A stretch of 64,000 bases of DNA from Squalus acanthias (Eukaryota). The translations under genes were made by a program, and so were the position numbers. The number at the start of each line of letters is the position of its first letter. Position 1 is the stretch's first letter. The notes under the pieces are model-generated. The model ran no database searches. It had not been told where the DNA came from and saw nothing but the letters and a program-made list of their open reading frames with translations. The stretch is taken from the NCBI GenBank assembly GCA_030390025.1, contig JASTWF010000088.1:868001-932000 (forward strand), written 5' to 3'. Below, one piece after another: positions 869 to 64,000 of the stretch.

Positions 869-917
869 ATGATTGGACTGATAGTGCTGGCCGTTCTGTG
901 TGGCAGGGTCTCTGCAG
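869..917 (+). CDS. MHC class I heavy chain exon 1 (signal peptide MIGLIVLAVLCGRVSA)
   Basis: ATG at 869, hydrophobic 16-aa leader ending V-S-A, phase-1 donor G|GTGAGT at 917/918; splices in frame to GSHSLRYF. Confidence 0.88.
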
Positions 918-16265: not shown

Positions 16266-16269
16266 CTGA

Positions 16270-36620: not shown

Positions 36621-36896
36621 TTGCTCCGCAAGTATTTCCTTCTGTGGACAAGGCATCAGGTATTAAACCGACCGAATTCTCCTGCCTCGTCACAGGCTTT
36701 TACCCTCGCGATATCAAAGTCACCCTCCTGAGAAATGACGAGCCGATCACGGACACGGAGTCCAGTGGCATCTTGCCCAACCACGATGGCACCTACCAGC
36801 TCACGAGATGGGCTCAGATCGAGTTCAAGGATGGAGCCGCCTATTCCTGTCAGTATGAGCAGAGCAGCAAAGCAGGAGTAGAGATCCGAGACTGGG
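36621..36896 (+). CDS. MHC class I exon 4 (alpha3, C1-set Ig domain)
   Basis: Pyrimidine-rich CCCAG acceptor; VAPQVFP...FSCLVTGFYPRDI...LPNHDGTYQL...YSCQY...RDW; 276 nt, phase 1/1, GTAAGA donor. Confidence 0.96.
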
Positions 36897-36939
36897 GTAA
36901 GAGAAACAGCGGCTGCAGGGGCATTGTCTCTCTGTGAGT

Positions 36940-39900
36940 CTTAAAGATGTTTATAATCACCTCTCCTCATTTTGCCTTCTAAAATGCATCACTTCACACT
37001 TCTCTGCATTAAACTTCATCTGCCATGTGTCTGCCCATTTCACCAGCCTGTCTATGTCCTCCTGAAGTCTGTTACTGGCCTCCTCGTTGTTGTTTACTGC
37101 ACTTCTGAGTTTCGTGTCATCTGCAGACTTTGAAATTATGTCCTGTATACCCAAGTCCAGGTCATGAATATTCATCAAAAAGAGCCGTGATCCTAATACT
37201 GCCCCCTGGGGGACACCACTCCATACTTCCCTCCAGTCTGAGAAACAACCGTTCACCATTACTCTCTGCTTTCTGTCCCTTAGCCAATTTCGTATCCACG
37301 CTGCCACTGTCCCTTAATCCCATGGGCTTCAATTTTACTAGCAAGTCTATTATGTGGCACTTTATCAAACGCCTTTGAAAGTCCATATACACATCAACTG
37401 CACTACCCTCATCAAGTTTGTCAAACACTATTTGCCTTTAACAAATCGATGCTGGCTGTCAATTTATTAACCCATGTTTTTCCAAGTGACAGTTAATTTT
37501 GTCCCAGATTATTACATTAGCAAGAGAGGATATAGGTGATCAGCGGAGACTCTGGTTCAAATTGAGGAATAAGAGAGGACATAAAACTGGAATGGGAGTT
37601 GTCCAAAGGCCTCCTGATAGCAGCAATGAAGTGGCAGAATGTATTAATTCAGAGATTAGAGAGGCTTATAGCAAAAGCAGAGTAGTTTTAATGATTGGGA
37701 AGAGCAGAATAGCTCAAGTCAGAAAGGTAGTGAATTTCTTGAGTGCCTTCAAGATAGTTTTCTGGAACAGTATCTTCTAGAACCAACAAGAGGGCAGGCC
37801 ATCCTAGATTTAATAATGAGTCAGACATAGTTAATCTAACAATAAGGGAACATTTATCTAACAGTGACCATAATACGGTCAAATTCAATGTTAGGTCTGA
37901 AAAGGAGAAACGTAACAGTTACTAAGATTCTAGATTTTGGTACGGCTAACTTTAACGGGATGAGACAGAGACTGACGACAGCAAACTGGTCAAAACTCTT
38001 AGTGGGTGAAACTACAGAAGAACAGTGGGAGGTGTTCAAGAATGAATTCAGCGTGATACAGGACCAGTATATACTCCTAATGGACAAGAGCTCTACTTAC
38101 CAAATGAAACAGCCATGGTCGACAAAAGAGGTGAAAGATAACAAAATTAAAAGAAAGAGCAAAGAATAGTGTAGATCCAGGGGACTGGGAGCAATGTAAA
38201 GAACAGCAAAGGAAGACGAAGAAGATAGTAAGAGCTGCAAAATGGAATATGAAGCGAAACTTGCGCGGGATATCAATCATAGAATGGTTACAGCACAGAA
38301 GGAGGCCAATTGAGCCCGTGCCGGCTCTCTGCAAGAGCACTTCAGCTAGTCCCACTCCCCCGCCCTTTCCCTGTAGCCCTGCAAAAGTTTTTCCTTCAGT
38401 TACTTATCCAAGTCTCTTTTAAAAACCACGATTGAATCTGCCTCCACCACCCTCTCAGGCAGTGCATTCCAGGTCATAACCACTCGCTGCGTAAAAAAGT
38501 TTTTTCTCATGTCGCCTTTGGTTCTTCTGCCAGTCACCTTAAATCTGTGTCCTCTGGTTCTTGACCCTTCCGCCAATAGGAACAGTTTCTCTCTCTCTCT
38601 ACCCCATATGATCAAGATCAACACACAGTTTTTACAATTATATTCGTGAAAAATGGGCCCTTTTTTTTAAAAAGATGCGGGTAATATTGCAAATGAAAAT
38701 AAGAAAATTACAGATTTGTTGAATAATTACTTTGTCAGTTTTCACAGTAGAGGGAGAGCATACCTGATATTCCAGGGAAATTAATAATGAATCAAGGACT
38801 GGAACTCACTAATGTTAACGAAAGCAAGAAAACAGTATTAGAAAAAATAAATGGCACTAAAGGCTGACAAATCCCCGGAACCTGATGGTTTCCACCCCAG
38901 GGTTTTAAAGGAAGTAGGCGAGGAAACGGCAGATGCTTTAGCCATAATCTTCCAAAGCACTCTCGATTCAGGAATTCCCCTACAGATTGGGAAATTACAA
39001 ATTTAACTCCATTATTGAAGAAAGGTGAGTGAGAAACCAGGAAATTGTAGACCTGTTGATCTAAATTTGAGCTGATTAGAGAGCCAGCATGGATTTGTAA
39101 AGGGGACGTCATGTCTAACGAACCTAATTGAATTTATTGAGGAAATAACTAAAGTAGCAGACAGGGGAATGTCTATTGATGTAGTTTGTATGGACTTCCA
39201 GAAGGCATTCGATATGGTTCCACATAAGAGACTTATTAAAGCTCATGGAATTGAAGGCATATTATTGGCCTGGTTAGGAGATTGGTTAGCTGGTCAAACA
39301 CAGAGAGTAGGGATAATGGGTATGTACTCTAATTGGAAGGATGTGACTAGTGGTGTCCCACAAGGATCGATGCTGAGGCTTCAACTGTTCACTGTATTTA
39401 TTAATAACTTCGATAACGCAATAGAGAGCCATATAACTCTGCCTAAGAGAGAGAGATCCAAGTTTATTCCAATGATACAAAGAGCATAAAATTAAAAAGA
39501 GACATTGATAGATAGTGAGTGGGCAAAACCGTGGCAGATGGATTTTAATGCAAGTAAGTGTGAAGTCATCCATTTTGGACCAAAAAAGGATAGATCCTTT
39601 TAAATGGTGAAACATCTTGGTTAGGACCACATCTTGTACAGTTCTGGTTACCGCACCTTCAGAAAGGATATATTGGTCTTGGAAATAATGCAGCGCATAT
39701 TCACCAGAATGTTACCAGGGTTAGATTATGAGGCGAGATTAAATAAACTAGGCTTGTATTCCCTGGAATATAGAAGGTTAAGGGGTGATTTTTTGTGAAT
39801 TTGTTTTTTTAGGATTTTGAACCAAATTGATAGGGCCATAGAGAAACTTTTTGCTGGCGGGGTAGTCTTGGACAAGGGGACATAACCATACAATCAGAGC

Positions 39901-40035
39901 CAGGCCATTCAGGAGAGAAGTTAGGAAACACTTCTTCATGCAGAGGGTGGTAGAAGTGTGCAACTCTCTCCCACAAAAAGCAGTAGATGCTAGTTCAATT
40001 AATTTTAAATCTGAGATTTTTGCTGGCCAAGGGTA
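36940..40035. mobile_element. Cluster of degenerate CR1 fragments (minus 36940-37500, plus 37500-40035 with a minus insert at ~38277-38620)
   Basis: Fragmented CR1 RT and endonuclease motifs (SGVPQG, DFQKAFD, SADDTK). Confidence 0.8.
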
Positions 40036-40186
40036 TGAATTTAAGAAAACTGCGCGTCGTTCGCTTGCGTAGTAACAAAGTCAACCTTTGGTTCTGGTTA
40101 CAATACTTTTTTATTCTTGCTTCAGCGCACAGTAGTTACGCAGACAGAGTACAATTACATGTAGGTATGCATTCCTTACATTGTAC

Positions 40187-43100
40187 TGTTGAGGCTGCCG
40201 CGAAACACGAATGGAGGCTGAATCCATATGTGGAAAACAAGAAGCTTTTATTCACTGCATGGCAAAACAAAATGTCTGAGAAAGCTGCTCCCAGAATTCT
40301 CTGGGTAAACTCCCAGAATTCTCTGGGTAAAACCTGAGGCCCCGCCCCCTTCTGCCTTAAAGGGAAGGGGCTGGAAATTTGTCCACAGACGGAAGAGTGG
40401 ATTATGCCGGTTTTAGGTGGCGATCCGCCACACAGCTCCCCACAGAATCCGCTTAGGAGGTGCGGACGAGACGGTGCGGCGGTCTGATGGGCCGGCCGGA
40501 GCGGCTCTTGTAGGACGCCGGTGGACGTGGGATGGCCGGGCGTGGAGTAGCCGGGTGAACCGGCTTGAGGGCAGGTCGGCCGCGTGGAGGTGGACAAGTT
40601 ACAGGGACCTGCTCCCCGGGCTCCGAGTGTGCTGGCTTGAGTCGGTCCACCGACACTTTTTCGGTCCTGTCGCCCACTTGCAGGGTGAAAAATTTGTCCC
40701 CAGCCTGTAGCACCTTGTAGGACCCGTCGTACGGGGGTTGAAGGGGTCCGCGGTGGGCGTCGTGCCGGACGAAAATGAACCGTGCCTGGTGCAGGCTTAG
40801 TGGGACGTGTGAGGTGGATTCGCCGTGTCGGGCAATGGGCACCGGGGCGAACTGCAGCGCCGGTGAGGCGAAGTTGTGGCGTTACTGGTCGGCTGACCAG
40901 GGTGTCGTGGCGGTGGGCAGGAACTCGCCGGGTACGCGCAGCGGCTGACCGTACACGAGCTCTGCTGCCGATGCGTGAAGGTCTTCTTTAACCGCGGTGC
41001 GCAGGCCAAGGAGGACCCACGGAAGTCGGTCACTCCAGGCGCCATCTTGGAGGCTGGCTCGAAGAGATGCCTTCAAGGATCTGTGGAATCGCTCACACAG
41101 TCCATTGGCTTGGGGGTGGTACGCTGTGGTGCAGTGGATGGTCACCCCGAGATTGCGTGCGACGGCGGTCCAGAGTTCAGAGGTAAATTGCGGACCTCTG
41201 TCCGACGTCATGTCGGAGGGGACGCCGAACCGTGCGACCCAGGTGCTGACGAAGGCTCTGGCGATGTCGGCAGTGGTGGTAGAGGTCAGTGGAATTGCCT
41301 CAGGCCAGCGTGTGGTGCGGTCAACGATGGTCAGCAAGTGCGTGTGGCCTTGCGACGGCGGCAGGGGCCCGACGATGTCCACGTGGATGTGGTCGAATCT
41401 CCGCGAGGGGACGGTAAACTCCTCGAGGGGTGCTTTCGTGTGTTGCTGTACCTTGGCCCGTTGGCAGGATAGGCAGGAGTTGGCCCAAGTACGCACATCC
41501 TTGCAAAGGCCGCGCCAGACAAAGCGGTTGGCTACCAATTTGATGGATGCGCGGGCGCCGGGGTGGGAGAGGTTGTGGAGAATGTCGAATATCCGGCGGC
41601 GCCAGGACGCTGGGACGACGGGCCGAGGTTGACATAGGGGTATGTCGCACTTGACCGTGACTGCGGTCGGGCCACAGGCGACGTCGGCCAGGCGTAGCCC
41701 TGGTAGGTTGGTGGGTGCGGAGAGCAGATCCGGGTCGGTGATCTGGTCTGCTGTAAGTTGAGCGTAGTCGACTGCTAGGTGTGCGGCGTGGATGGCGGGG
41801 CGGAAGAGGCAGTCGGCTACCACATTGTCTCGGCCGGAGACGTGTTGGATGTCCGTGGTGAACTCGGACACTGCCGCGAGCTGGCGCTGCTGCCTGGCGG
41901 ACCAGGGGTCGGTTGTCTTTGCCATTGCGAATGTCAGGGGCTTGTGGTCGACAAACGCAGTGAAGGGGTGGCCCTCAAGCAAAAACCGGAAATGGCGGAC
42001 CGCCAGGAACAGCGCGAGGAGCTTGCGGTCGAAGGTGCTGTACTTGACCTCCAGGGGGCGTAGTTGGCGGCTGAAGAAGGCAAGTGGTTGCCAGGCGCCG
42101 TCGACCCACGGCGCCAACCGCGTGGTCGGAGGCGTCCGTGGTGAGCGCTACCCTGGCATTGGGCCGTGGGTGCGCGAGCAGGGTGGCGTTGGCGAGCGCG
42201 GTCTTGGTGAAATCGAAGGCGGCGGACGCATCTGCCGTCCATTCGACCGCCATCTTGCCGCTCCTGCCCCGGAGGGCTTCATACAGGGGCCTCATGAGGG
42301 ACGCCGCTTTGGGGATGAAGCGGTTATAGAAATTCACCATCCCGAGGAACTCCTGGAGGCCTTTGATGGTGGTGGGGCGGGGAAATTGTTGGACGGCCTG
42401 CACCTTGGTGGGCAGGGAATGGCCCCAGCATGGGTGATGTGGTGGCCGAGGAAGTCGATCTTGTCCAGGCCGAACTGGCATTTGGCTGGGCTGAGGATGA
42501 GCCCGTGGTCGCTGAGGCGCCCGAACAGGATGCGAAGGTGTTCGAGGTGTTCCTGCTTGGAGGAACTGGCTACCAGGATGTCGTCCAGGTAGACGAACAG
42601 GAACTTCAGGTCCCGAAGGACTGAGTCCATGAGCCGTTGGAATGCCTGGGCCGCGTTTTTGAGGCCGAAGGGCATCCGCAGGAACTCGAACAGGCCGAAG
42701 GGGGTGATTACGGCCGTCTTGGGGACATCCGCGGGGTGGACGGGGACTTGGTGGTAGCCGCGCACCAGGTCGACCTTGGAAAAGACTGAGCGGCCAGCCA
42801 GTCTAGCCGAGAAGTTCTGAATGTGCGGCACGGGGTACCGATCAGGGGTGGTGGCGTCATTGAGGCGGCGGTAATCCCCGCAGGGGCGCCAACCCCCGCC
42901 TGGTTTGGGGGCGATGTGGAGTGAGGAGGCCCAGGGACTGTTGGAGTGGCGGATGATGCCGAGCTGTTCCATGGTGGCAAACTCGGTCCGCGCGATCTCC
43001 AGTTTGGCCGGGTCCAGCCTGCGGGCGTGGGCGTACACTGGGGGGCCTGTGGTGGGGATGAAGTGTTCCACCCCGTGTTTGGCGGCCTCCGCGGAGAAGG

Positions 43101-44539
43101 TCGGATTGGTAAGGGCCGGGAATTCGGCCAGGAGTGCCGAGTAGTCATCCGTGGCCCAGGCGTGGCACTGTGACGCCATGTCGGCGGGTTGACGGGGTGC
43201 CATGGCGCCCAGGATGGGGGACATGGTGTTCATGTCCATGAGGCGGTGACGAGGGATGTCTACCAGTAGGCCGTGGGCGCACAGGAAATCTGCACCGATG
43301 AGGGGGGAGAGCACCTTGGCAGTGATGAACTCCCATCAGTAGCGGTGACCAGCGAGGTCGAGGGTGACTGTCCGGGTGCCATACGTCCAGATTTCCGAGC
43401 CGTTAGCAGCAGCCAGCGCCGGTCCTCGTTCGCCCTTTTGGATGTCGAGGGAGGAGGCCGGGATGATGCTGTGCTGAGCCCCAGTGTCGCACAGGAACCG
43501 GCGGCCGGTTTTGTCATCCGTGACGAACAACAGGGAGCCCGCGTGGCCCACGGCCATCGCGGGGGCTGGAACGGGGGCGGACTTGAAAGAGCAAGGAGGT
43601 GTGCACCGTTGTGCCCTGGCGCCGAACTGTGCGTGGTAGTAACAGTGGCCCCGGTTAGTGGGGCGTGAAGGCCCCGTGGGCCTGGTGACAGGCCCTTGTG
43701 GCCGCGGGCTGGATGGTGAGGGGCGCGCCCAGGCATTGGCTGCCAGGTCCGGAGTGACGTCGCGGCTGGAGTGAGCGGACAGCAGCTTGTCGGCCTCATC
43801 GGCCAGGGCTTCCAGGTTCGTGAGGCCGGACGCCACGATCGCTGGGCGAATGCTGAGAGGGAGCTGGCGGATGAACAGCGTGCGGAAGAGGGATCCGGGT
43901 GGGCTCTCGTCGGTGAGGGAGAGCATGTGGGAGAGGAGGTCTGACGGTGAGGCATCACCGAGGCCTGGAAGGTCGAGGAGGTGGCAGTCTCGCTGATATG
44001 CCGAGGCCGTAAATTTTTTAAGGAGCGCTGTTCTGAGATGTGCGTACTTGCCTTCCTCAGGTGGGTTCTGCAGCGTTGTCCAAATCTTGGAAACTGCGAC
44101 GCTACTGAGTGATGTGACGAGATAGTCGTACTTCGTCCCATCTGTGGTGATATTTCGCAGCCGGAAGCGAGATTCAGCTTGGAGAAACCAGGCTTCGGGC
44201 TGCTTTTCCCAAAACTCCGGCAGTTTCACGGAAACTGCGTTCGTGTCCACCATTGCAGTGCTCGGAATACGTTCTGAGCGTCGGGGACACCAATGTTGAG
44301 GCTGCCGCGAAACACGAATGGAGGCTGAATCCATATGTGGAAAACAAGAAGCTTTTATTCACTGCATGGCAAAACAAAATGTCTGAGAAAGCTGCTCCCA
44401 GAATTCTCTGGGTAAACTCCCAGAATTCTCTGGGTAAAACCTGAGGCCCCGCCCCCTTCTGCCTTAAAGGGAAGGGGCTGGAAATTTGTCCACAGACGGA
44501 AGAGTGGATTATGCCCGTTTTAGGTGGCGATCCGCCACA
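40187..44539 (-). mobile_element. Full-length Ty3/Gypsy LTR retrotransposon
   Basis: 246-bp TG..CA LTRs at 40187-40432 and 44294-44539 (one mismatch seen), TSD GTAC, PBS TGGTGTCCCCGACG (tRNA-Trp-like), gag-PR-RT-RH-IN order. Confidence 0.96.
40453..44252 (-). pseudogene. Gypsy gag-pol, disrupted by 2 in-frame stops and 2 frameshifts
   Basis: Gag VKLPEFW, protease FLCDTGA, RT YLDD, RNase H TDAS, integrase HIHVDIVGP/SDRGPQF/ERFHRSLK; stops at ~43336 and ~40882, shifts at ~42420 and ~42120. Confidence 0.92.
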
Positions 44540-46039
44540 GTACCATCTATTGTTAGTGGACATAAGCGATTTATACATTCCCAATGTGGGTGTTGAGGAA
44601 AATCCTTTCTGTCTCCTATTGGTCCTTTTTTATTGCTACAGCACCTTGTATGGGTTTTCTCCCTTCAGTGGTTTTTGACTTGCCAGGACTTGCCTTTTCC
44701 TTTCTGTCCCTGTATCAACATCCCTTACTTTGTTTTTCAACTTCGTGGGCTGCCTCTTAAAGGTTGTTGCACTTCCCTAAAATGGTGGCCACCCCATTCC
44801 CATTACTATTTCATAACATAAGAACATAAGAATTTGGAGCAGGAGTGGGCCATACGGACCCTCGAGCCTGCTCCGCCATTCAATAAGATCATGGCTGATC
44901 TTCAACCTCAACTCCACTTTCCTGCCTGATCTCCGTATCCCTTGATTCCTCAAGAGTTCAAAAATCTATCTATCTTAGCTTTAACTATACTCAACGATTC
45001 AGCATCCACAGCCCTTTTGGGTAGAGAATTCCAAAGATTCACACCCCTCCTGAGTGAAGAAATTCCTCCTCAACTCAGTCTTAAATGGCCGACCCCTTAT
45101 CCTGAGAGTATGCTCCCTCGTTCTAGACTCTCCAGCCAGGGGAAACAACCTCTTAGTATCTACCCTGTCAATCCCCCTCAGAATCTTGTATGTTTCAATG
45201 AGATCACCCCTCTTCTAAACTCCAGAGAGTAAAGGCCCATTCTACCCAATCTCTCCTCATAGGACAGCCCTCTCATCCCAGGAATCAATCTAGTGAGCCT
45301 TTGTTGCACCGTCTCCAAGGCAAGTATATCCTTCCTCAGATAAGGAGACCAAAACTATACACAGTACTCCAATACCATGTGCAATTGTAGCAAGACTTCC
45401 TTACTCTTGTACTTCAACCCCCTTGCAATAAAGGCCAACATGCCATTTGCCTTCCTAATTGCATGCTGTACCTGCATCTTTTACTCTCTGTTTCCTGTAC
45501 AAGGACACCTAAATCTTTCTGAACACCAACATTTAATAGTTTCTCCCGATTTAAAAAATATTCTGTTTTTCTATTCTTCCTACCAAAGTGAATAACCTCA
45601 CATTTCCCCACATTATACTCCATCTGCCACCTTACTCACTTACTCTGTCCATATCCCTTTGCAACCTTTGCAGGCTCTTTGGGGGAAAAATTAGGTCGCG
45701 CCCCGTTTGGGGCGCAAATATCGTCTGGACGCAAATATTAGCGCCTGGCGCTAATTATCGCCACTGACTGGAAACTTCACTTTTACCGCCCCGGGAGGTG
45801 AGTGGAGCGCTAAATCAGGCGCTGCACACCTGTCTTAAGGCGCAAAGGCCGAGCAGTGAGGCGCTAACTCAGCGCGCGAGCGCAGCGCAGGTGCTGCCAG
45901 TTAGCGAGGGAACACAGACACACTGGCGCCGGTCAGTTCTTAAAGCGGGGGGTGCCAACTTGCTCCCCAGCCACACCCTGCTCATTGCAGCCTTGAATCT
46001 CGGCCTGGAGAGACCTGTGAATCTATTTTGCTGCCAAGG

Positions 46040-47859
46040 ATGGAGAGGGTGAGAGAACGAGCTCAGCGCTTCACCGAGCGGGCCTTGGATGCTCTGGTTG
46101 GCGCGGTGGAGCGCAGAAGATGTATACTCTTCCCTGAGAGTGGCAGGAGGCCTTTGCCACGCGAGTACAGAAGAGTGTGGAGGGAGGTGGCTCAGAGCGT
46201 CTCCTCCAGGAGCATGGTGCCCAGGACCCATGTTCAATGCCGCAAAAAGTTCAACGACCTCACTCGGGTCGTCAGGGTGAGTGGCTTTTTCTCAATACCT
46301 CTCCATCCCTCCATCTCAACCTCACTCTATGGCCAGAGGGTCTTAAAACCCCAATGCACAACACTCATCCAACACCTATGGCCCTTTCATGAAACACACA
46401 CACACATTCCACACTTTGCATACAGTAAGGGCTATTCACCTATGGGAGGCACATCAGGCAAGACCATGGCTGTATACAGTAAGGGCTATTCACCTATGGG
46501 AGGCACATCAGGCAAGACCATGGCTGTATATTTACTCAGATGCTGTCCTTTTTCTTGCAGGCCAAGCTGGCGCATAATAGGAGACAGCAGCAACGGACAG
46601 GTGGAGGGCAGCCTCAGCTGCAACCCCTCAGCGATCTTGAGGAGCGCGTCCACAGGATTGTGGCAAGCCGGGTGATCGGTCCCGTCGCCACTGGAGACGC
46701 CGACCCCGTTCTGGACAGCAATGGTAAGGTCATCACCTTTTTGTCCTCTGTCCTTCCACTTGTCCCTCACAACACCAGCCTTTGACACTTTCAATCCAAC
46801 TTGCTAACTCGCTGCACTTATTCCTCCCTTACTGCCACCCTGTCCTCACGCTAAAGCCACTCTTGTACCTCCCTGCTTTCAGATGGTGATTCACCAGCTG
46901 AGGAGACGGGCCCTGAAGCTGCCAGTGGGAGTGAAGCTGCAGCTGAGGAGGAAGAGGAAGCCGGAGCATCAGTGCCACCCTCTCCCGAGGAAGCCCATGC
47001 CCACACTGGGAACACGCCTTCCCTGGAGGGGAGCAGGGGGGAAGGGTCTGATGAGGGTGAAGCTCCAGGACCCAGTGGGCTGCAGCAACGCCATGGGGGT
47101 AGGGAAGAACAGGGGTCTTCTCCCCAGAGGGAGAGTATGCCAGCGACTCCTACTGCAATGGACGCAGAGGAGGAGCGGCTGATCGCAGAAATGAACACCC
47201 AGGCGGTGGGCATGCACACTGAGCTCATGGGTGCAGTGGGAAGGGTGCCCGAATGCATTGAGTCACTGGCAAGGAGTGTGGAGCACTTCGCTGTAGCACA
47301 GGCGGATGCCACACTAACGCTTAGTGCTGCAATTCAGTCACTGACTGCCGTGATCCCATCTCTGACTGCTCTCATGCAGACTCAGATTGAGGCCACGCGA
47401 GCACTGACTGCTGCCAACCTCGATGGTTCGTTCACATGTCCCCGGGGCTCTCACCGCGCCGCAGCAGGCCAGCAATCTGTGCTCCAGCAGATTGCTCCGG
47501 ATGCTGAAGTGCTGCCCCGTGGGAGTGCCAGTGTGTCGGGCGAGCAGGGAGTTGCTGTCCTCTCTCACGATGACAGCATCCCTGCTGCCAACACTGTCAC
47601 TTCTCCACTGCACTTGCCACTGCCTGTAGGACAGACTGCTGCCGCCGATGCAGAGTTGGTGCAGTCTGCAGCCGGGCCCTCCAGGCCCAGAACTGGTCAA
47701 GGCCGTCCTTCAGGGGCATCTGCAGTGTCAGGGTCTAACGATCAGCAGCCTTCCACCAGCCTTGCTGCAGCCACTGAGGTCCCATTACGGAGGAGCAGTA
47801 GGGTTAGAAGGGGGGAAGTGCGCAAGGGAAGGAGATCACCCTCGAAGGGCAAAAAGTAG
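46040..47859 (+). CDS. Harbinger Myb/SANT-like protein, 3 exons (46040-46276, 46561-46723, 46883-47859), 458 aa
   Basis: AGG|GTGAGT, TTGCAG|GCC, AATG|GTAAGG and TTTCAG|AT junctions give one continuous frame. Confidence 0.88.
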
Positions 47860-48186
47860 GAGGTGTGACAAAATGCTGGTCATTTTTTTATTAAAGGCCG
47901 AGGTTCGTGGTCCAACTTTTGTTTAGTGTTTTGGACATTATCTCCAGGTTGTGAGAACCAGTTATGTTAATGACTTTTTTTGTGTTTATTTCTATGAGTT
48001 TGTCATGAGGAAATGACACACACAGAGTTTGTAAAATAAATAAGTTTTTGTATTCAAAATATACATGTTTGGTGTTTGGAATCATTGGTGCCTTGGCCGG
48101 CTTAGGGGTTGCGTGCTGGGTTCATTGATGTTGTTAGCAATGGCAGAAGCCATTTCCACAGCAGGGGCCCTAGAAGCGGCTTGCTA

Positions 48187-51865: not shown

Positions 51866-53680
51866 CATAGAATCATAGAATGGTTACAGCACGGAAGAAG
51901 GCCATTCGGCCCATCGAGCCTGTGCCGGCTCTCTGCAAGAGCACTTCAGCTAGTCCTACTGCCCCGCCCTTTCCCCAAAGCATTGCACATTTTTTTCCTT
52001 CAGGTACTTATCCAACTCAATTTTGAAAGCCGTGATTGAGTCTGCCTCCACCACCCTTTCAGGCAGTGCATTCCAGATCCTCACTACTCGCTGAGTAAAA
52101 AAGATTTTTCTTATGTCGCCTTTGGTTCTTTTGCCAATCACCTTAAATCTGTGTCCTCTGGTTCTCGACCCTTCTGCCAATGGGAACAGTTTCTCTCTAT
52201 CTACTCTGTCCAGGCTCTCATCAAATCTCCTCTCAACCTTCTCTGCTCTAAGGAGAACAACCCCAGCTTCTGCAGTCTATCCACATAACTGAAGTCCCTC
52301 ATCCCTGGAATCATTCTCGTAAATCTTTTCTGCACCCTCTCTAAGGCCTTCACATCCTTCCGAAAGTGCTGTGACCAGAATTGGACACAATACTCCACTT
52401 GAGGCTGAACCAGTGTTTTATAAAGGTTCTTCATAATTTCCACGCTTTTGGGGGGGGGAAATTCGGTTGGTTAACGCCTCCCGTTAGTGCCTCCAGGGGC
52501 GCTAACGGAGCGTTAGGAACTTAGCGCCCGAGCGCGGCAATTTTAGCGCCGCTCGCGAAATTGACCAGTCATTTTGCGGCGGCGCTAAACACTACTTCCA
52601 CGATCTCCTGCGCCCGCAGATTGTGACGTCAGTCGAGCGTGCAACACCCTGGTAGCGCTCCAGACCGGATATTGAGTCGCGCCCCCTGCCTTAGCGCCTG
52701 CCGCTAGGAACAACAGGTAGAGGGGAACGTTTTCAAGTCGGGAAGGGCTGGGGGAGCGCTATTTAAAGGCGGGCGCTTCCTGGTTTTTCTTGTCAGCAAA
52801 ATCTTTGGTTTGAACGCTGTCCTCAGGAGTTTTGGTCCTCAGCACCACTTTTGAGGTTCCTAAGTGCCGAGCTCTTTCCGTGGGCCTATCCATTAGTGCT
52901 TCCAACACAATTGCTTTTGAGGTCTCTCCAGGTCGAGATTGAAGGCTGCAATGAGCAGGGAGTGGCTGGCCAGCAAGATGGCCCCTCCACTTTAAGAACT
53001 GGATGGCGCCAGTCTGTCTGTCTGGCTTCCATGGTAATTGGCATCGCCTGAGCTTCGGTAGCGTTCTGAGGTAGCGCCTCGCTCCCTGACGTTTGCGCCT
53101 TGAGAGAGGTGTGTAGCACCTGATTTAACGCTCAAATCACCTCCAGGGGCGATAGAGGCGAATTTTGCAGTCGGAGGCAATAATTAGCTAAACTTTGCGC
53201 ATGGCCGATATTAGCGCCCCAAAATGGGCGATACTGAATTTTTTCCCCCAAGTACTCTATGCCTCTATTCATGAAACCCAGGATCCCTTAAGCTTTTTTA
53301 ACTGCTTTCTCAACCGGCCCTGCCACCTTCAACGATTTGTGCACATATACCCCCAAGTTCATGCACCCCCTTTAGAATTGTACCCTTTAGTTTATATTGC
53401 CTCTCCTCATTCTTCCTAAGAAAATGTATCAATTCACACTTTTCTGTGTTAAATTTCATCTGCCATATGTCCGCCCATTCCACCAGCCTGTCTATGTCCT
53501 CTTGAAATCTATCACTATCCTCCTCACTGTTCACTATACTTCCAAGTTTTGTGTCATCTGCAAACTTTGATATTGTGCCCTGTACACCCACGTCCAAGTC
53601 ATAAATATATATCAAGAAAAGCAGTGGTCCTAGCACCAACCCCTGGGGAACACCACTGTATATCTTCCTCCAGTCCGGCT
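51866..53680 (-). mobile_element. CR1 LINE 3' fragment inserted in the env-like region
   Basis: CATAGAAT tail; ORFs 52201-52443 and 53310-53702 (GVPQG, FADDTK). Confidence 0.87.
52450..53249. mobile_element. Diverged internal-deletion derivative of the Harbinger family (~800 bp)
   Basis: G-run/AAATT TIRs; left part resembles 22678-23020 and right part resembles 26550-26885; TSD not resolved. Confidence 0.8.
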
Positions 53681-55450
53681 GATTCATCTTATTTGTCCCC
53701 ATCCTTCTCAGCCCTCGGCTCCTGTTTCCTATTCTTTCTTTCCTAACAATTCCTTTACTAATTCTCCAAGCATTTCATCTGTAAACTGTGAATTCTACAA
53801 ATCAACTGTACTCCAAATCCTCCTTCCACCTTTACTACATAATTTTCTTCCTGCCCATTATAAATGTAGCATTCGCCTTCTCATTACCCTCCCATCTTAT
53901 TAATGCTGTTACACAGCATGGCATATTCCTTGAGCCCCCATTTTTACGCTGACACACATGTCCCATTCTTTTGTAGCAGACATTTAGTTCCGTTTTGATG
54001 TGACTCTTCATTGACGTCTTCCTTCAGCCAGTTTCCTGTTTCCGTTTCCACCGTATGGAATGTGACATCCTTGGAGTCTGGACAGGCGCATTCAAGACAC
54101 ACCCCCTGGTCTTGCCGACTAAGCGGACCTGTGGTGTGTAATGGCACGGTGTAGTTCCTGAACCGTCAGTGTCTGTAAAGCTGAACGTCTCTCTCCCTCT
54201 ATAGTAATAGTACAATCATTCTGGGACTCGCCTTTAGCATTCATTCCGTATACACTCCCGGACAGGAACAGTAGCAGGATGTACAACATCTTTGTCACTC
54301 CTTCACCTGCAGACACAAGACCAAATGTGTAACATTTAGTCTTTATTCAACATCTGCACCATTCTTTTTATAGGGTTTATACTGATCCCCATGATACCAC
54401 ATGTATTGTATCCTCTTTTCTCGTTTCTGGATGGCCAATTTAATGTTGGATTCTCCCAGTTTGTCCATGATTTCATACGGGCCTTCCCAGGCCCTCCCAC
54501 CCCTTAAAACTTTTTAACATCACTTGATCACCAATTGAGTAGGTGATACGACGAGTAAGGTGGTTATCCTTGGTGGTGTTAAGATGGGTAGCACCCATCT
54601 TCTGCGCTGCATGGTGCAGAGTAGAATCTAAGGATTGTTGGAGGTTCTGTTCATGGGTCTGAGGAGTAGCAATAGGGAGTGGTTCCCCCGTCAGGTGCAT
54701 TTGCATCTGTGGGCCTGTCGTAAGTTTAAATGGGCTTTGAGCCATAGAGCTCACTGGTGTAGCGCATATGGCCATACACTATGATAATTGAAACGTAATG
54801 TTGCCAATTTCCTATTGGAGGAGAATGGTCATCTCCGCCGAGGGGCCTCATCCTCCTACCCCACACAGCTGCAGGCCGTGCCCGCCAGAGGGGAAATCTT
54901 CATGGTAAGTGATGGAACAGGAAGTCCCAGTGTCCACTTAGTTGTCTTGGCGGCCTCTTGCCAAGACTGGAATACAAGGTCTAAACGCCTCATCACATTG
55001 GAGCTGGCTCACCACAGCTATTGAGGCCCATCCCCGTCAATCCTTCTTAAAAGAATTTTTGGGGTCTGTGGCTTTACCAGAATTGCTTATTTCTACCATC
55101 TTCTATAGAGCCTGAAAGGCTTCTAAATATACATTCTGCTCATCTGGGAGAGGCAGGAATGAGCCTCCCTGTTCCCTTATCTGCTTGGGTCCCTGCTTGT
55201 AGGCTCCTCATCCCCTAGCCCAAGACTGTCCTCTAACGTGTCCTGACTTGCCACAGTTACAGCAAGGTCTCTTACTCCCCCACCCCTTTTTGCTTCTTCA
55301 TAGGTCACAGTTGCTACCGCCATTTCATCTTTGGAATTACTGGGGGTCTCTGATCGAGTTGGGATTCGTACCAAGCTAGGAGGGCCGTTTGGATGTCCCT
55401 TCCTATTCCTGCCCGTGGATTAGCTGCCGCTAATTCCATGGTGTACTGAC

Positions 55451-55525
55451 GAAGCATATGCTCACCGGCAGGACTGAAGCATATGCTCACCGGCAGGACT
55501 GAAGCATATGCTCATCGGCAGGACT
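55451..55525 (+). repeat. 25-bp tandem repeat x3 (GAAGCATATGCTCACCGGCAGGACT)
   Basis: Direct inspection; disrupts the gag-like frame. Confidence 0.85.
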
Positions 55526-56955
55526 GAGGAGGGCCTTGTACCTGCTAAGCACCAAGGTCCAAAAAGTGGGATCATTCCAGGTTAACTCCACTTGTTCATA
55601 GCCCCCACGATTTTGATTATACACCTCCACGAAGGCTCTCGGATATTGAGTTGGGTGCTCGTCCCTGGGTTTATGATCCATTATTTTTCCCGTATCTGCC
55701 ACCACCCTATATCCCACAGCTTCACACACCACATCGTCGCGCACATCATGGTTTGGGAATTCTTGTCCCTCTCTAAACCGCTTGGGCGGTGTCAAGCCTG
55801 GAGGTAAGACAGCCTGTAGCAATCGACAACCATCCTTGTTTGCCAATGCTTCTGCCAGCTGTAGCGATCGTATTTTATTTAATAGCTGGGTTGCGTCTGC
55901 TACCCCATCAGATTTAGGCAGTTGGCCACTAAGTTGGCATAATTCCGAGAGAGTTAGGTCCCTACTAACTTGTTGATCCGCATATGTATATTCCATTCGA
56001 CCCTTCCCATGTGTGTGCAGGCGTTTGGTTACTACGGGGGCCACTAAGCGCCCATCTGTACTGCTACCTGCCGCATGGGACCGAGTGTAACTGGCTATAC
56101 TATCTACTGCTAACGATGTACGAGGGAGACTGACTTAAACTGTCGTCGTCCTCCTTGCCACCTCAGTTAACTGCCCGTGGTGAGGAACCGGGAATTAGAG
56201 TGCCGACGGGAGGGCTGGATCATCCTTGCCATCGTCACTATTGGATTTCTCCTCGCAAGTGCCGAAGGACAAGGCAGTCACTCGAACCCTTAATTCTTGA
56301 ATTTTTTTTTCTTGTCCTCCTCCCTTCCACATCTTTCCTCCCTCAATTTCCTTATCATGCATAAGGCTATCACTAACACTACTAGCTGAGCAGCTACCAG
56401 CCCCATCTGGAACAGCATTGCCCATACCCTCCACGGGGGTACTCCTTTATCATCTTTATCCATTTTTACAGCTGCTTTACCTTTGGCCCTCTCCTTCTTG
56501 GACTTGGCCTTTATTGGAGGTGATCAGCCTCCAATATTTCCTCCCTTGCAACAACCTCCCCCTTCTATGATACCTATAGAGATAGAGGACTGTATAACTG
56601 GCACAGTGGTTTCCCGGGCACTGTCACGTTAAAACATCGTACAATTTGATGTCTGCTGTACTCATTAACAAATTGAATACTACTCTCACGTGTATGTGTT
56701 CTTTATCCTGTGTCTTGCGGCGTAGTTTGTCGCTGTGGGTCGTTGACGCTCATCTGGATCGAGTTCTTGATGGTTCAGATTTGGCTTCAGACCGGTGTCG
56801 ACCGTCCCTGGTTTTCAAAAAGCCACGAGTTCAGGTCGGCACTAGCTTGCCAATGTTGAATTTTTAAAAACTGTGTGTCGTTCACTTTAGTAGTAACAAA
56901 GTCAGCTTTTGGTTCTGGTCCCAACACACCTATTCTTGCTTCAGCGCACACAGTA

Positions 56956-58507: not shown

Positions 58508-58922
58508 CAAAGCAAAATACTGCGGATGCTGGAAATCTGAAATAAAAACAGAAAATGCTGGAAATACTCAGCAGGGCAGGCAGCACCTGTGGAGAGAGAA
58601 ACAGAGTTAATGTTTCAGGTCGATGACCCTTCGTCAGAACTGGACAAAGTTAGAGATGGAACAGGCTTTAGGGAGGGAAAGGGGGGAGGGGAGGAAAGAA
58701 CAAAAGGGAAGGTCTGTGAAGGAGTGATTAAATGACAAAAGGCATCATGGTGAAAGACAAAAGGAGATGGTAATGGGACGAGTAAATAAACAAAAGATGT
58801 GTCTAGAGGAGGTGTAAATGGGAATAGCAGAATCATTACCAACAGCTGCTGTCTGGAAAAATGGGGGCGGTGGTTATGATCTGAAATTGTTGAACTCAGT
58901 ATTGAGTCCAGAAGGCTGTAAA
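58508..58922 (-). mobile_element. Penelope-like element 3' region with hammerhead-like motif
   Basis: Minus strand CAGTT-CTGACGA-AGGGTCATCGACCT-GAAA-CATTAACT at ~58604-58642. Confidence 0.6.
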
Positions 58923-61132
58923 GTGAGGGACAGCAACACGGGGCTGGAGAGTGGAGAGAGAGAGCATGGGGAGAACTAAGGGACAGGGAAACATGAGGCT
59001 GGAGAGTGAAGAGACACGGACTGACCATGGGGTACTGAGCGTTAGGGTCATGAGGCTGGAGAGTGGAGAGTCACAGACTGACCATGGGGTACTGAGCGTT
59101 AGGGTCATGGGGCTGGAGAGTGAAGAGGGAGAGAGGAACATAGCAGCAGAAGAAGGCTATTCAGCCCCTTGAGCCTGTTCCGCCAGCCAATTAGATCATG
59201 GCTGATCTGTGCCTCGACTCCATTTAAGAACGTAAGAGCAGGAGTGGGCCATACGGCCCCTCGAGCCTGCTCCTCCATTTAATAAGATCATGGCTGATCA
59301 TCGACCTCAACTCCACTTTCCCGCCCGATCTCCATATCCCTTGATTCCCCTAGAGTCCAAAAATCTATCGATCTCAGCCTTGAATATACTCAAAGATTCA
59401 GCATTCACAGCTCTCTGGGGCAGAGAATTCCAAAGATTCGCAAAGAAAGTCCTGCTCATCTCAGTCTTAAATGGCCTACCCCTTATCCTGAGACTATGCC
59501 CCCAAGTTCTAGACACTCCAGCCAGGGGAAACAACCTCTCAGCGTCTACCCCGTCAATCCCCTTCAGAATCTTGTATGTTTCAATGAGATCACCTCTCAT
59601 TCTTCTAAACTCCAGAGAGTATAGGCCCATTCTACACAATCTCTCATCATAGGACAGCCCTCTCCTCCCAGGAATCAATCTAGTGAACCTTCGTTGTACT
59701 GCCTCCAAGGCAAGTATATCCTTCCTTGGATAAGGAGACCAAAACTGTGCACAGTACTCCAGGTGTGGTCTCACCAAGGCCCTGTACAATTGCAGCAAGA
59801 CTTCCTTACTCTTATACTCCAACCCCCTTGCAATAAAGGCCAACATGCCATTTGCCTTCCTTATTGCTTGCTGTACCTGCATGCTAGCTTTCTGTGTTTC
59901 TTGCACAAGGTCACCCAAATCTCTCTGAACACCAACATTTGAAAGTTTCTCACCATTTAAAAAATATGCTGTTTTTCTATTCTTCCTACCAAAGTGAATA
60001 ACCTCACATTTCCCTACATTATACTCCATCTGCCACCTTACTGCCCACTCACTTAGTCTATCTATATCCCTTTACAGACACTTTGTGTTCTCCTCACAGC
60101 TTACTGTCCCACCTAGCATTGTATCATCAGCAAACTTGGATACATTACATTTGGTCCCTTCATCTCGGTCATTAATATAGATTGTAAATAGCTGAGGCCC
60201 CAACACTGATCCTTGTGGCACCCCACTAGTTACAGCCTACCTACCTGAAAAAGATCCGTTTATCCCTCCTCTGTTTTCTGTCCGTTAACCAATCCTCTAT
60301 CCATGCTACCATATTACCCCGAACCCCATGAGCCCTAATCTTGTGTAATAACCTTTTATGTGGCACCTTATGAAATGCCTTTTGGAAATCCAAATATACT
60401 ACATCCACTGGTTCCCCTTTATCTACCCTGCTAGTTACATCCTCAAAAAACTCTAATAAATTTGTCAAACACGATTTCCCTTTCATAAAACCATGTTGAC
60501 TCTGCCTAATTATGTTATGATTTTCTAAGTGACTTGATACCACTTCCTTAGCAATGGATTCCAGCATTTTCCCGACGACTGATGTCAGGCTAACTGGCCT
60601 GTAGTTCCCTTTTTTTTCTCTTATTAATTTAGACCCTAGCTCCTCAAACTCCCTCAGCAGAACCTCATTCTTAGTTCTACTTATGTCGTTGGTTCCTACA
60701 TGGACCATGACAACTGGATCCTCCCCCTCCCACTCCAAGTTCTTCTCCAGCCACGAGGAGATATCCTTAACCCTGGCACCAGGCAGGCAACACAGCCTTC
60801 AGGGACCCTCTTTCGCGGCTGCAGAGAACAGTATCTATCCCCCTGACTGTACTGTCCCCTACTGCTACCACATTCCTTCCTTCTCCCTCTTGCTTGGATG
60901 GTCCCCTGTACCACGATGCCATAGTCAGTTTTCCCATCCTCCCTGCAGTTGCGACACACCACTTGCCCTGTCATCTCCAACCTTGTTTTATTTATTAATT
61001 AATTAGTTAAAGATTTTATTCAATTGATATTTCAGGTTTATTGTTTGATTATTTTATTTAGTTTGTGATTAATTTAATAAGTATTAGCAAGTTAGTTTCT
61101 CAGCTCTTAATTTAACCCCCTTCCCTAACTTA

Positions 61133-61345
61133 AATGAGAAGTCGCACAACACCAGGTTATAGTCCAACAGTTTTATTTGAAATCACAAGCTTTCGGAGCT
61201 GCTGCTCCTTCGTCGGGTGAAGTGACGAAGGAGCAGCAGCTCCGAAAGCTTGTGATTTCAAATAAAACTGTTGGACTATAACCTGGTGTTGTGCGACTTC
61301 TCATTTTTGTCCACCCCAGTCCAACACCGGCATCTCCGCATCATG
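61133..61345. mobile_element. Penelope-like inverted pLTR pair (83-bp arm hairpin)
   Basis: Arms 61132-61214 and 61224-61306, 9-nt loop; 12-bp TSD TTCCCTAACTTA. Confidence 0.8.
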
Positions 61346-61459
61346 TTCCCTAACTTAGAGAGCAAAAAAGAGCTGTAATACTCATCAACCAATCACCTAC
61401 CTGCTTTCCTGAGACGTCACTCTTTAACGTTGTTTTTGAATCGGAGCCTCACGCTGTCA

Positions 61460-61840
61460 CTGCTTTAATTCAGGTCCGCTCTCGGGCTGCTCTATATCCT
61501 CTCCCCGCTGCCGCTGCTTTAATTCAGGTCCGCTCTCGGGCTGCTCTATATCCTCTCCCCACTGCCGCTGCTTTAATTCAGGTCCGCTCTCGGGTTGCTC
61601 TATATCCTCTCCCCGCTGCCGCTGCTTTAATTCAGGTCCGCTCTCGGGCTGCTCTATATCCTCTCCCCGCTGCCGCTGCTTTAATTCAGGTCCGCTCTCG
61701 GGCTGCTCTATATCCTCTCCCCACTGCCGCTGCTTTAATTCAGGTCCACTCTCGGGCTGCTCTATATCCTCTCCCCGCTGCCGCTGCTTTAATTCAGGTC
61801 CGCTCTTGGGCCGCTCTATATCTTCTCGCTGCTGCCGCTG
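61460..61840 (+). repeat. 54-bp tandem repeat x~7 at the CR1 5' end
   Basis: Unit CTGCTTTAATTCAGGTCCGCTCTCGGGCTGCTCTATATCCTCTCCCCGCTGCCG. Confidence 0.92.
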
Positions 61841-63327
61841 ATTTACCCACCTTTGCTCGATATGTCCCTCATACACTTACCTAACAAAACACTATCTCCA
61901 TTTTGAAAGCTCCAATTGATTCTCAACATCCACAGCCTTTTTGGGAGAGCGTTCCAGATTTCTACTACCCTTCGTGTGAAGAAGTGCTTCCTGATTTCCC
62001 TCCTAAATGGTCTCGCTCTAATTTGAAGATGATGTCCCCTTGCTCTTGATTGCCCCCCAGAGGGAGTAGTTTCCCTGTATCTACTCTATCAAATCCTTTT
62101 AACATTTTAAACACCTCGATCAGGTCACCCTTCAATCTTTGAAACGTGAGAGAATACAAACCAAGTTTATACAACCTGTCCTCATAATTGAACCCTCTAA
62201 GCCCCAGAATCATTCTGGTGAATCTGCTCTGCACCCTCTCTGTGCCCTGAACTGAACGCAGTGCTCCAGATGGGGTCTAACCACAGCTTTATAGAACTGT
62301 AACCGAACTTCCCCACTTTGTATCCCAGTCCTCGAGACAGGCCAACATTCCATAAGCCTTTTTAATTATTTTTTATCCTTGTCCACTAGCTTTTAGTGAT
62401 TTCTGTACTTGGAGCCCTAAATCTCTCTGCACCTCCACAGTTCCCAGCCTCTCGCCATTTAGAAAATACTCTGATCGATCTTTCTTGGGTCTAAAGTGGA
62501 TGACCTCACACTTTCTCACGTTGAACTCCATCTGCCACAGTTTTACCCACACTTAATCTAACGATGTCCCTTTGCAACTTCCTGCTCACATCTACACAAC
62601 TTACTGTCCCCATAACTTAGTCTCATCGACAAACTTAGATAGACAACTCTCCATTCCTTCATCCAAGTCATTTATAAATGTGGTGAAAAGCTGAGGCCCC
62701 AGAACAGATCCCTGGGGACACCACTAGTCACAACCCACCAATCAGAGTACCTACCCTTTATCCCCACTCTCTGTCTCCTACCTCCCAACCAATTTCCAAC
62801 ACAGTCTAAAGACCACCTTCAATTCCATGCACTCTCATTTTTGCTAAGTCTCTTGTGTGGAACCTTATCGAATGCCTTCTGGAAGTTCATATAAATAACA
62901 TCCATAGACACTCCCATAGCTACCTCATTAGTGACCTCCTCAACATAATCAACTAGATGAGTCAGACCTGACTTACCTTAACAAAGCCGTGCCTCTCTCT
63001 GATCAGTTCATATTTGTTCAAGTGCTCAGTCACTCTGTCCCTAATAACAGATTCTAGTAGGTTCTCAAACCCAATGTTAAACTGACTCCCTATAACTCCA
63101 ACCTTTCTGTCCTCCTCCCGCCTTGGACTGCCTCCTACTCCATGGTGCCTTGGTCAACATTGTGGCCATCCTTCCCAAAGCCTTGATCCTTATCTCCACC
63201 GGCAGCAAGCACATCGTACCTGTTGAACCTCCTTCACTAGATTACCCAACCCTGCTGACCATCAGTCACAATCCTCCTCCTGAACCTGTACCTCTCTACT
63301 TGGTGTGACTGAAATCTGCAGTAAACT

Positions 63328-63673
63328 AGGCCCCTCTCCCTCAGTCTGTCAGTGGGTGGGTTACCCCCGGCCCCTCTCCCTCAGTCTGGCAGTGGTTGGG
63401 TTACCCTGGGCCCCTCTCCCTCAGTCTGGCAGTGGGTGGGTTACCCTGGGCCCCTCTCCCTCAGTCTGTCAGTGGGTGGGTTACCCCGGGTCCCTCTCCC
63501 TCAGTCTGTCAGTGGGTGGGTTACCCCGGGCCCCTCTCCCTCAGTCTGTCAGTGGGTGGGTTACCCCGGGCCCCTCTCCCTCAGTCTGGCAGTGGGTGGG
63601 TTACCCCGGGCCCCTCTCCCTCAGTCTGGCAGTGGGTGGGTTACCCTGGGCCCCTCTCCCTCAGTCTGGCAGT
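63328..63673 (+). repeat. 40-bp tandem repeat x~8.5
   Basis: Exact 40-bp period GGCCCCTCTCCCTCAGTCTG(G/T)CAGTGGGTGGGTTACCC(C/T)G. Confidence 0.95.
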
Positions 63674-63747
63674 GATGTTGATGATTGAATTGCAGGGAGC
63701 AATGTTAATTATCTGACCAATGAGATGCTGCATTCAGTCACTCAGCT

Positions 63748-64000
63748 GGTGATGTTTTGGGGTTCATGCCCTGATGTCTCTCTGCATGTGTGGGGTTGAT
63801 GTTTTGGGGTTCATGCCCTGATGTCTCTCTGCATGTGTGGGATTGATGTTTTGGGGTTCATGCCCTGATGTCTGTGTGTGTGTGTGGGGTTGGTGTTTTG
63901 GGGTTCATGCCCTGATGTCTCTGTGCGTGTGGGGGGCTTGGTGTTTTGGGGTTCATGTCCTGATGTGACTCTCTCTCTGTGGGTTTGGTGTTTTGAGGTT
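63748..64000 (+). repeat. Short version of the intron 1 minisatellite in the paralog
   Basis: ~6 units of TGTTTTGGGGTTCATGCCCTGATGTC. Confidence 0.93.

What the first reader, a model, noticed from the sequence alone, without database searches (positions are those of the whole stretch)
36621..64000. Class I gene with no TM exon runs into a leaderless second class I copy: possible tandem (a1a2a3)x2 fusion gene
Seen: after the intact alpha3 exon I can assign nearly all of 36.9-58.9 kb to mobile elements and find no TM/cytoplasmic exon, second leader or second promoter. From ~58923 the sequence duplicates intron 1, and the last bases match 10230-10272, which lies 120 bp upstream of alpha1. Known: class I domain exons are all phase 1. 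Inference: a deletion or unequal crossover joined gene A (L-a1-a2-a3) to gene B (a1...). The alpha3 donor could then splice in frame to the next alpha1, giving a heavy chain with two peptide-binding platforms. Two truncated pseudogenes, or an assembly artefact, are the alternatives.
Basis: partly seen in the sequence, partly recalled or inferred. Interest (0 to 1): 0.78.

Follow-up and report, generated by a model that had tools for sequence, protein, structure and literature searches.

The report
Anchorless, doubled shark MHC-I gene
A shark immune gene has lost its membrane anchor and carries its three antigen-presenting exons twice behind a single promoter, so it likely makes one long message that would encode a secreted protein with two peptide-binding grooves, though the joining splice has not been seen.

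Summary
An intact leader-α1-α2-α3 is followed by 27 kb of mostly mobile DNA with no TM exon, leader or promoter, then a copy of intron 1 from 58926. Past the window lie α1B (64166), α2B and α3B with open frames and canonical splice sites. A and B share one TM-deletion breakpoint, so the anchor was lost before the cassette duplicated. α3B ends 4 nt short, and a class-I-specific 3' element survives 17 kb further on. The join recurs in a second, about 1% diverged copy, so it is not an assembly error; that copy lacks promoter, leader, α1A and α2A. Three RNA-guess runs show α3A spliced at its acceptor at low depth. No α3→α1 junction was seen, and B expression is untested. ORF retention and synonymous bias weakly favour selection. 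Four ray species have database models with the same TM-less tandem layout in a separate clade. Best reading: one gene, likely giving a secreted (α1α2α3)x2 chain (0.45). Rivals: single-cassette soluble forms (0.25), decaying pseudogene (0.25).

The parts
560..868 (+). Class I promoter region (ISRE-like, TGACTCA, ATTGG/CCAAT motifs; motif names recalled)
   Evidence: 73-75% identical to the region before three other leaders on the contig; same motif order as intact gene D
869..917 (+). Leader exon, the only one serving both cassettes
10393..10653 (+). α1 exon, cassette A
   Evidence: PF00129 E 2e-26; best PDB match 6lup_A E 1.7e-37
13904..14176 (+). α2 exon, cassette A
   Evidence: PF00129 E 6e-21
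36621..36896 (+). α3 exon, cassette A; acceptor used in RNA-type contigs; donor GGG|GTAAGA, phase 1
   Evidence: PF07654 E 2e-13
36897..38262 (+). Intron-3 remnant; homology to the TM-bearing paralog D stops at about 38262, about 140 nt before D's TM exon; same break in B at 76608
40187..44539 (-). Young LTR retroelement (LTRs 99.6% alike, target duplication GTAC, pol in several frames), absent from the second genomic copy
45675..49844 (-). DNA transposon with DDE_Tnp_4 transposase; 94.6% copy in intron 2 (22674-26891)
53676..56856 (.). Dispersed repeat, class not determined
   Evidence: 43 genome matches
58926..64000 (+). Duplicated intron 1, joined to a high-copy repeat at 58925/58926; lacks leader and promoter. 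It runs on past the window into cassette B (numbering continued): α1B 64166-64426, α2B 67971-68243, α3B 74956-75227 (4 nt short, donor phase 0), no TM, and a class-I-specific 3' element at 92100-92474 with a candidate acceptor at 92195
   Evidence: join; cassette B; 3' element:

Best explanation
This is one shark MHC class I gene that has no membrane-anchor exon and carries α1-α2-α3 twice behind one promoter and leader; it likely splices straight through both cassettes and would then encode a secreted heavy chain with two peptide-binding platforms. SHOWN: exon layout, absence of TM and cytoplasmic exons, shared TM-deletion breakpoint, sister relation of A and B, in-frame α3A donor and α1B acceptor, use of the α3A acceptor in RNA-type contigs. 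INFERRED HISTORY: (1) a paralog of the TM-bearing gene lost TM at a repeat insertion site; (2) unequal crossover or tandem duplication with one end about 500 nt into intron 1 doubled the cassette; (3) mobile elements filled the new intron; (4) α3B lost 4 nt at its end, which is harmless once no coding exon follows. INFERRED EXPRESSION: L-α1A-α2A-α3A-α1B-α2B-α3B (1665 nt, 555 codons), ending either by read-through of the α3B donor (a 15-residue hydrophilic tail, then a stop) or by splicing to the retained 3' element (stop after 27 codons). PREDICTED FUNCTION: each unit would bind β2m and a peptide, giving a low-abundance bivalent soluble ligand or decoy for T-cell or NK-type receptors. This last step is untested.
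For: All 6 domain exons are open, with the Cys pairs of α2 and α3 kept, and all 13 splice sites from the leader donor to the α3B donor are GT/AG; the α3 and α2B donors equal those of intact gene D. B has no promoter or leader, so any selection on B implies use from A's promoter. Under neutral decay at the intron rate (257 substitutions and 19 frame-shifting indels in 5200 aligned nt), P(no stop) = 0.16 and about 2.9 frameshifts are expected against 1 seen; joint about 0.03 by my arithmetic counting that deletion. Between the two genomic copies introns differ 0.7-1.5%, α1B and α2B are identical, and the α3 exons differ by 7 synonymous and 3 replacement changes (binomial p 0.002). Anchor motif YYYYRFTKW (PMC2846915): A keeps 7 of 9 (L123, S143), B 8 of 9 (S143). 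RNA-guess runs X7, X8, X9 (3 of 3 laid; 2 studies) each hold an A-specific contig starting exactly at the α3A acceptor with 0-1 other letters, while DNA-like X6 runs through both splice sites. The 3' element is better conserved than introns. Models with L-(α1α2α3)x2-3 and no TM exist for 4 ray species.
Against: No α3A→α1B junction was seen: no contig specific to the 3' end of α3A was laid on 36843-36896 in X7, X8 or X9, so the next exon is unknown. No database protein carries α3A: best 80% among 12 hits of 161-2000 aa, none at 50-160 aa. The X7 contig has 177 unlaid upstream letters; if these are α2A they cross two 31-mers shared with α2B without a break, a weak hint that B is absent from that cleaned graph. 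Depth is 4-42 against about 2000-4200 for paralog-type contigs in X7 (contig depths rank poorly). dN/dS of A against B is 0.62, not clearly below 1 (Fisher p 0.064). The second copy lacks promoter, leader, α1A and α2A. One contig in X6 shows a change in the last Trp codon of α3A (36894). The 27-kb intron holds several AATAAA/ATTAAA sites. The predicted α3→α1 linker is only about 3 residues. Synonymous bias could come from gene conversion with paralogs. The ray proteins are automated models and may be fused neighbours.
Confidence: 0.45

Rival explanations
1. The gene is active but makes ordinary-size soluble class I chains: L-A ending by read-through of the α3A donor (stop about 13 codons later) and intronic polyadenylation, and possibly L-B by skipping cassette A. 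The duplication would then work as alternative cassettes or B would be a passenger.
For: Read-through gives a short tail and stop; AATAAA at 38846 and ATTAAA sites follow; only A is shown spliced; salmon ULA and ZBA are TM-less single-unit precedents (PMC2846915).
Against: The α3A donor is identical to that of intact gene D; B looks constrained and the conserved 3' element lies behind B, not A.
Confidence: 0.25
2. It is a transcribed but decaying pseudogene: TM loss killed it, the duplication was neutral, and any tandem mRNA or protein is unstable or without effect.
For: TM, both cytoplasmic exons and the end of α3B are lost; the second copy has no 5' end; neighbouring gene C has an α3 frameshift, so the cluster turns over; low depth; dN/dS near 1 in α3 (0.81-1.32).
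Against: No stop and no internal frameshift in 6 exons after about 5% intron divergence; synonymous bias between copies; intact promoter motifs and splice sites.
Confidence: 0.25
3. The layout is an assembly artefact: two class I genes were mis-joined through repeats and the TM exon was dropped or lies in a gap.
For: The scaffold has N gaps at -69976 and 113769; the region after the second gap repeats β2m and α3A-B, which looks like a second haplotype; no long read was laid across 58.9 kb.
Against: No gap lies in 1-113768; the 58925 join is present in both copies at 98%; the copies differ by about 1% and by an LTR insertion with a clean empty site; the second copy has no gap and no TM between α3B and the next leader; A and B share the TM breakpoint.
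Confidence: 0.05

Closest known systems
Squalus acanthias class I AAN77874 / Q8HWH7 (P0002) and the expanded shark UAA/UBA-type class I genes (naming varies between PMC10751288 and PMC12562908)
   Same: 75-78% aa identity over α1-α3; same exon phases; A+B group with gene D and P0002 (97/91); near β2m as described for the elasmobranch MHC (PMC10751288).
   Different: No TM or cytoplasmic exons; cassette doubled; T143→S in both units; α3B truncated.
TM-less class I of Atlantic salmon, Sasa-ULA and ZBA (PMC2846915); soluble HLA-G isoforms as cited there
   Same: Paralog of a peptide-binding class I that lost its anchor and keeps most anchor residues; presumed secreted.
   Different: Those have one α1-α2-α3 unit; here two units share one leader.
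Automated tandem TM-less class I models in rays: Mobula birostris XP_072115023/24/26/27, M. hypostoma XP_062904366/7, Hypanus sabinus XP_059826596/8, Pristis pectinata XP_051899585
   Same: Leader + (α1α2α3)x2-3, no TM; units within a species are 90-97% alike.
   Different: Separate clade, 53-58% identity to A/B (no formal one-clade test run); they end in the last cytoplasmic exon and mostly carry a 4-10 aa linker; they are predictions, and a TM-bearing Hypanus relative (P0188) sits among them.
Class I structure 6LUP (nurse shark, species recalled; the call names it only 'MHC class I protein')
   Same: Best PDB match for α1A (E 1.7e-37) and α2B (E 7.6e-34).
   Different: Single unit; says nothing on whether a tandem chain folds.

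Membership tests
MHC class I heavy chain | α1-α2 peptide-binding domain (PF00129) | tested here: met
   A; B by 80-85% identity to A and PDB match
MHC class I heavy chain | C1-set α3 with Cys pair and FYP motif | tested here: met
   α3B lacks the last Trp
MHC class I heavy chain | Binds β2-microglobulin | not tested
   No complex job was sent; a textbook pair would pass by likeness
Classical class Ia | Nine peptide-anchor residues YYYYRFTKW | tested here: inconclusive
   A 7 of 9, B 8 of 9; L123 also occurs in P0002 and shark Trsc-UAA
Classical class Ia | Transmembrane and cytoplasmic exons | tested here: not met
Classical class Ia | High expression and allelic polymorphism | tested here: inconclusive
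   Contig depth 4-42 against thousands for paralog-type contigs; α1B/α2B identical in two copies
Classical class Ia | Tight linkage to TAP1/2 and PSMB8/9 | not tested
   No search for these genes was made
Secreted TM-less class Ib (ULA-like) | Leader present, TM absent in the genome | tested here: met
Secreted TM-less class Ib (ULA-like) | Full-length spliced mRNA | tested here: inconclusive
   Only the α3A acceptor is shown in use
Secreted TM-less class Ib (ULA-like) | Protein found outside the cell | not testable with these tools
   Needs proteomics or antibodies
Class I pseudogene | Disabling stops or frameshifts in the domain exons | tested here: inconclusive
   0 stops; one 4-nt deletion at the very end of α3B; second copy lacks the 5' end
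Ray tandem TM-less class I models | Common origin of the duplication | tested here: not met
   A+B nest in a shark clade (100/99) that excludes the ray units

The most novel reading that the evidence does not exclude
Elasmobranchs have more than once built secreted multi-platform class I chains, (α1α2α3)x2-3 without an anchor: natural MHC dimers and trimers on one polypeptide. This locus is a young, independently evolved case caught with its history readable (TM loss first, duplication second), and the ray models are an older lineage of the same design.
Probability: 0.22. Interest if true: 0.85.

Novelty: new variant of a known kind. Interest (0 to 1): 0.58.

Why it matters
Class I heavy chains are treated as one platform per chain, and multivalent class I is known to me only as an engineered reagent (recalled). 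A natural bivalent secreted chain would be a new architecture and would give a direct test of what soluble class I does in fish, which PMC2846915 calls unresolved. It would also mean that some long class I models dismissed as annotation fusions are real genes. One RT-PCR across α3A→α1B decides the first step. If that fails, the locus is an ordinary product of birth-and-death in an MHC cluster.

Tried and rejected
TM hidden further downstream or in the gap: rejected; none before 374144, and the gap-free second copy has none. Second leader or promoter in the spacer: rejected. Hydrophobic hit at 50737: repeat-derived, donor not checked. No RNA holder listed; the runs laid were RNA guesses, and this blank is no evidence. 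Lack of cover on the 3' end of α3A and across its donor in RNA-type contigs is uninformative, since both the tandem and the read-through path would be short low-depth branches beside an abundant paralog. Expression of cassette B was left untested. Protein searches found no product of A; B was not used as a query there. The class II β family search rang nowhere, controls included. The bacterial promoter scan does not apply. A fold of the ray model P0179 as a stand-in for a linkerless α3→α1 junction was submitted and had not returned; nothing rests on it. Earlier scan findings: nothing returned. Ten literature searches listed no paper whose title or abstract start describes a natural tandem class I chain; I saw only the listings for most. 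The Almeida 2020 and 2021 shark class Ib papers were not held and no supplements were read, so a prior description there cannot be excluded. One row (Carcharodon P0210) was left out of the tree, and gene C out of the trees.
Full report
Coordinates. The window is G000:C3751:868001-932000. Numbers above 64000 or below 1 continue the window numbering along stretches fetched. The closest named protein, Squalus acanthias AAN77874 (P0002), has an α3 identical to one on contig C771, so the genome is likely from that species or a close relative.

1. The observation. Leader 869-917, α1A 10393-10653, α2A 13904-14176 and α3A 36621-36896 form one open frame with phase-1, GT/AG boundaries; Pfam assigns PF00129 and C1-set. 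Between α3A and 64165 there is no TM, cytoplasmic, leader or promoter sequence by tblastn, blastn, genome searches or pattern scans with working positive controls. The spacer is mostly mobile DNA: 58% matches other local repeats, and the rest is chiefly an LTR element (40187-44539) and a dispersed repeat (53676-56856). At 58925/58926 a high-copy repeat joins a copy of intron 1 that begins about 500 nt past the leader.

2. Beyond the window. α1B (64166-64426), α2B (67971-68243) and α3B (74956-75227) follow, 80-85% identical to A in protein, open, with canonical sites. There is none: the first TM downstream is at 374144 and belongs to another gene, and the genome holds 4 matches to this TM exon, none here. 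α3B is 4 nt shorter at its 3' end, which removes the last Trp and makes the donor phase 0.

3. Order of events. Intact paralog D (leader 400368 to stop near 433060) has its TM about 1.65 kb after α3. A and B both follow D's intron 3 to about 140 nt before the TM and then diverge at the same point into the same repeat (A 38262, B 76608). The anchor was therefore lost before the duplication (inference from a shared breakpoint). A and B are sisters in trees of α1-α2 (96/93) and of α1-α3 (96/91); the α3-only tree leaves their relation open. Introns differ by 3-6%. B keeps a remnant of the post-TM intron (score 68 against a shuffle maximum of 46), a long CT array, and at 92100-92474 a segment found only downstream of α3 exons of this subfamily (5 of 5 matches), 97.6% identical to D's against 82-88% for intron 3. 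It has a candidate acceptor at 92195; spliced to α3B it would give a stop after 27 codons. Whether it is an exon is not shown, and D's nearby ATTAAA is missing in B.

4. Is the join real? After a 500-N gap at 113769 the scaffold repeats β2m and then α3A-α1B-α2B-α3B. This second copy differs by 0.7-1.5% in introns, lacks the LTR element at a clean empty site, and has the same 58925 join (98%). It is likely the other haplotype, or a recent duplicate. It lacks promoter, leader, α1A and α2A; its homology to copy 1 begins inside a repeat at 160833-165447, which fits a repeat-mediated deletion or a mis-join. No long read was laid across the join.

5. Expression. Of 22 runs listed, none is on record as RNA. 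I laid 4 of the 22. X7, X8 and X9 (RNA guesses, 2 studies) each have a contig that starts at the α3A acceptor, matches A with 0-1 differences over 105-151 nt, and has 177, 29 or 115 upstream letters that are not intron. X6 runs through both splice sites like DNA. So cassette A is spliced at α3, at depth 42, 9.5 and 4 against about 2000-4200 for paralog-type contigs in X7. No contig covered the A-specific 3' end of the exon in the three RNA-type runs, so the next exon is unknown. A weak hint against B in X7: its contig would cross two 31-mers shared by α2A and α2B unbroken, if the upstream letters are α2A. Expression of B remains untested. No database protein carries α3A.

6. Selection. For: no stop and no internal frameshift in six exons, where the intron rate predicts P(no stop) 0.16 and 2.9 frameshifts. 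The 783-nt window of that estimate excludes the α3B end; counting that deletion, the joint chance is about 0.03 (my arithmetic). Between the two copies, α1B and α2B are identical and α3 changes are 7 synonymous to 3 replacement (p 0.002). Anchor residues are 7 of 9 in A and 8 of 9 in B (motif from PMC2846915). Against: A/B dN/dS 0.62 (p 0.064), near or above 1 in α3; possible gene conversion; a 5'-less second copy; a changed Trp codon in one X6 contig; a frameshifted neighbour (gene C).

7. Mechanism. B has no promoter, so if B is used it is used from A's. With no TM acceptor left, the nearest class I acceptor after the α3A donor is α1B, in frame. The default product would be L-(α1α2α3)x2, 555 codons to the end of α3B, with a short hydrophilic tail and no anchor, hence secreted (inference). 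The competing fate is polyadenylation in the 27-kb intron, giving a single-unit soluble chain. The α3→α1 linker would be about 3 residues, so packing with two β2m is uncertain; the stand-in fold did not return. I put the tandem mRNA reading at 0.45, single-cassette forms at 0.25, pseudogene at 0.25 and artefact at 0.05.

8. Comparison. It works like salmon ULA or ZBA, TM-less paralogs presumed secreted (PMC2846915), but doubled. It is a class I gene of the P0002 subfamily and fails the classical test on TM. A search of 1.84 billion representatives with P0002 ranked a 654-aa Mobula model first. Of 26 hits examined for architecture, models from 4 ray species have repeated units and no TM; the full isoforms are L-(α1α2α3)x3 in two Mobula species and x2 in Hypanus and Pristis. 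Five other long elasmobranch models (2 Mustelus, 1 each Pristis, Stegostoma, Scyliorhinus) have a TM between units, as fused neighbours would. Some bony-fish and lizard models also lack an inner TM. The ray units form their own clade (91/89), group by species, and are 53-58% identical to A/B, so the layout here likely arose independently. All are automated models; a TM-bearing Hypanus relative sits among them, and one Hypanus linker looks like a cytoplasmic exon, so annotation fusion is not excluded.

9. Literature seen. PMC10751288: passages, section 4 part 1 of 4, section 9; elasmobranch class Ib genes, multicopy UBA and β2m map to the MHC. PMC2846915: passages and section 16. PMC4364491, PMC12562908, PMC6523485, PMC10707392: passages only. 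Ten searches listed no description of a natural tandem class I chain; two key shark papers were not held and no supplements were read.

10. Verdict. The transcript that would make it remarkable is plausible and unproven. New variant of a known kind; interest 0.58.

Noticed in passing
P0276, P0267, P0266, P0179, P0181 (database proteins): Four ray species have predicted class I chains with 2-3 near-identical α1α2α3 units, no TM, ending in the last cytoplasmic exon; they form one clade with units grouping by species.
   Followed up: partly
G000:C3751:784650-784919 and L006:7393-7662 (minus strand): β2m-like C1 exon occurs twice, identical in protein, beside each copy of the class I locus; a leader candidate lies at 126113 in extended numbering. 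Suggests two haplotypes scaffolded in tandem.
   Followed up: partly
extended 160833-209180 (L010-L015): Second copy of α3A-α1B-α2B-α3B lacks promoter, leader, α1A and α2A; a possible null haplotype made by repeat-mediated deletion.
   Followed up: partly
extended 362937-374269 (L030-L032): Gene C, 98.5-99.6% like intact gene D in its exons, has a 2-nt deletion in α3 and no cytoplasmic exons were found; its nearest leader is 84 kb upstream.
   Followed up: no
L051-L052 (C3487:376.9-385.3 kb): A leader and a P0002-like α1 face an inverted leader, with no α2 or α3 match on that contig: fragmented assembly of the main gene or an inverted duplication.
   Followed up: no
L053-L056 (C3328, C812): A second class I subfamily with a near-identical leader but a different α3 (53-55% to α3A).
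   Followed up: no
window 40187-44539: LTR retroelement with 99.6% identical LTRs, present in one copy and absent in the other: a recent insertion.
   Followed up: yes
window 4485-10387, 10665-13845, 14175-16270: Introns 1 and 2 are swollen by multi-kilobase minisatellite arrays that abut the α1 and α2 exons.
   Followed up: no
window 22674-26891 and 45675-49844: Two inverted, 94.6% identical copies of a 4.2-kb DDE_Tnp_4 transposon flank α3A.
   Followed up: no
P0010 (Heterodontus model): Predicted isoform ends four residues after the last Trp of α3 without a TM: a single-unit soluble form in another shark.
   Followed up: no
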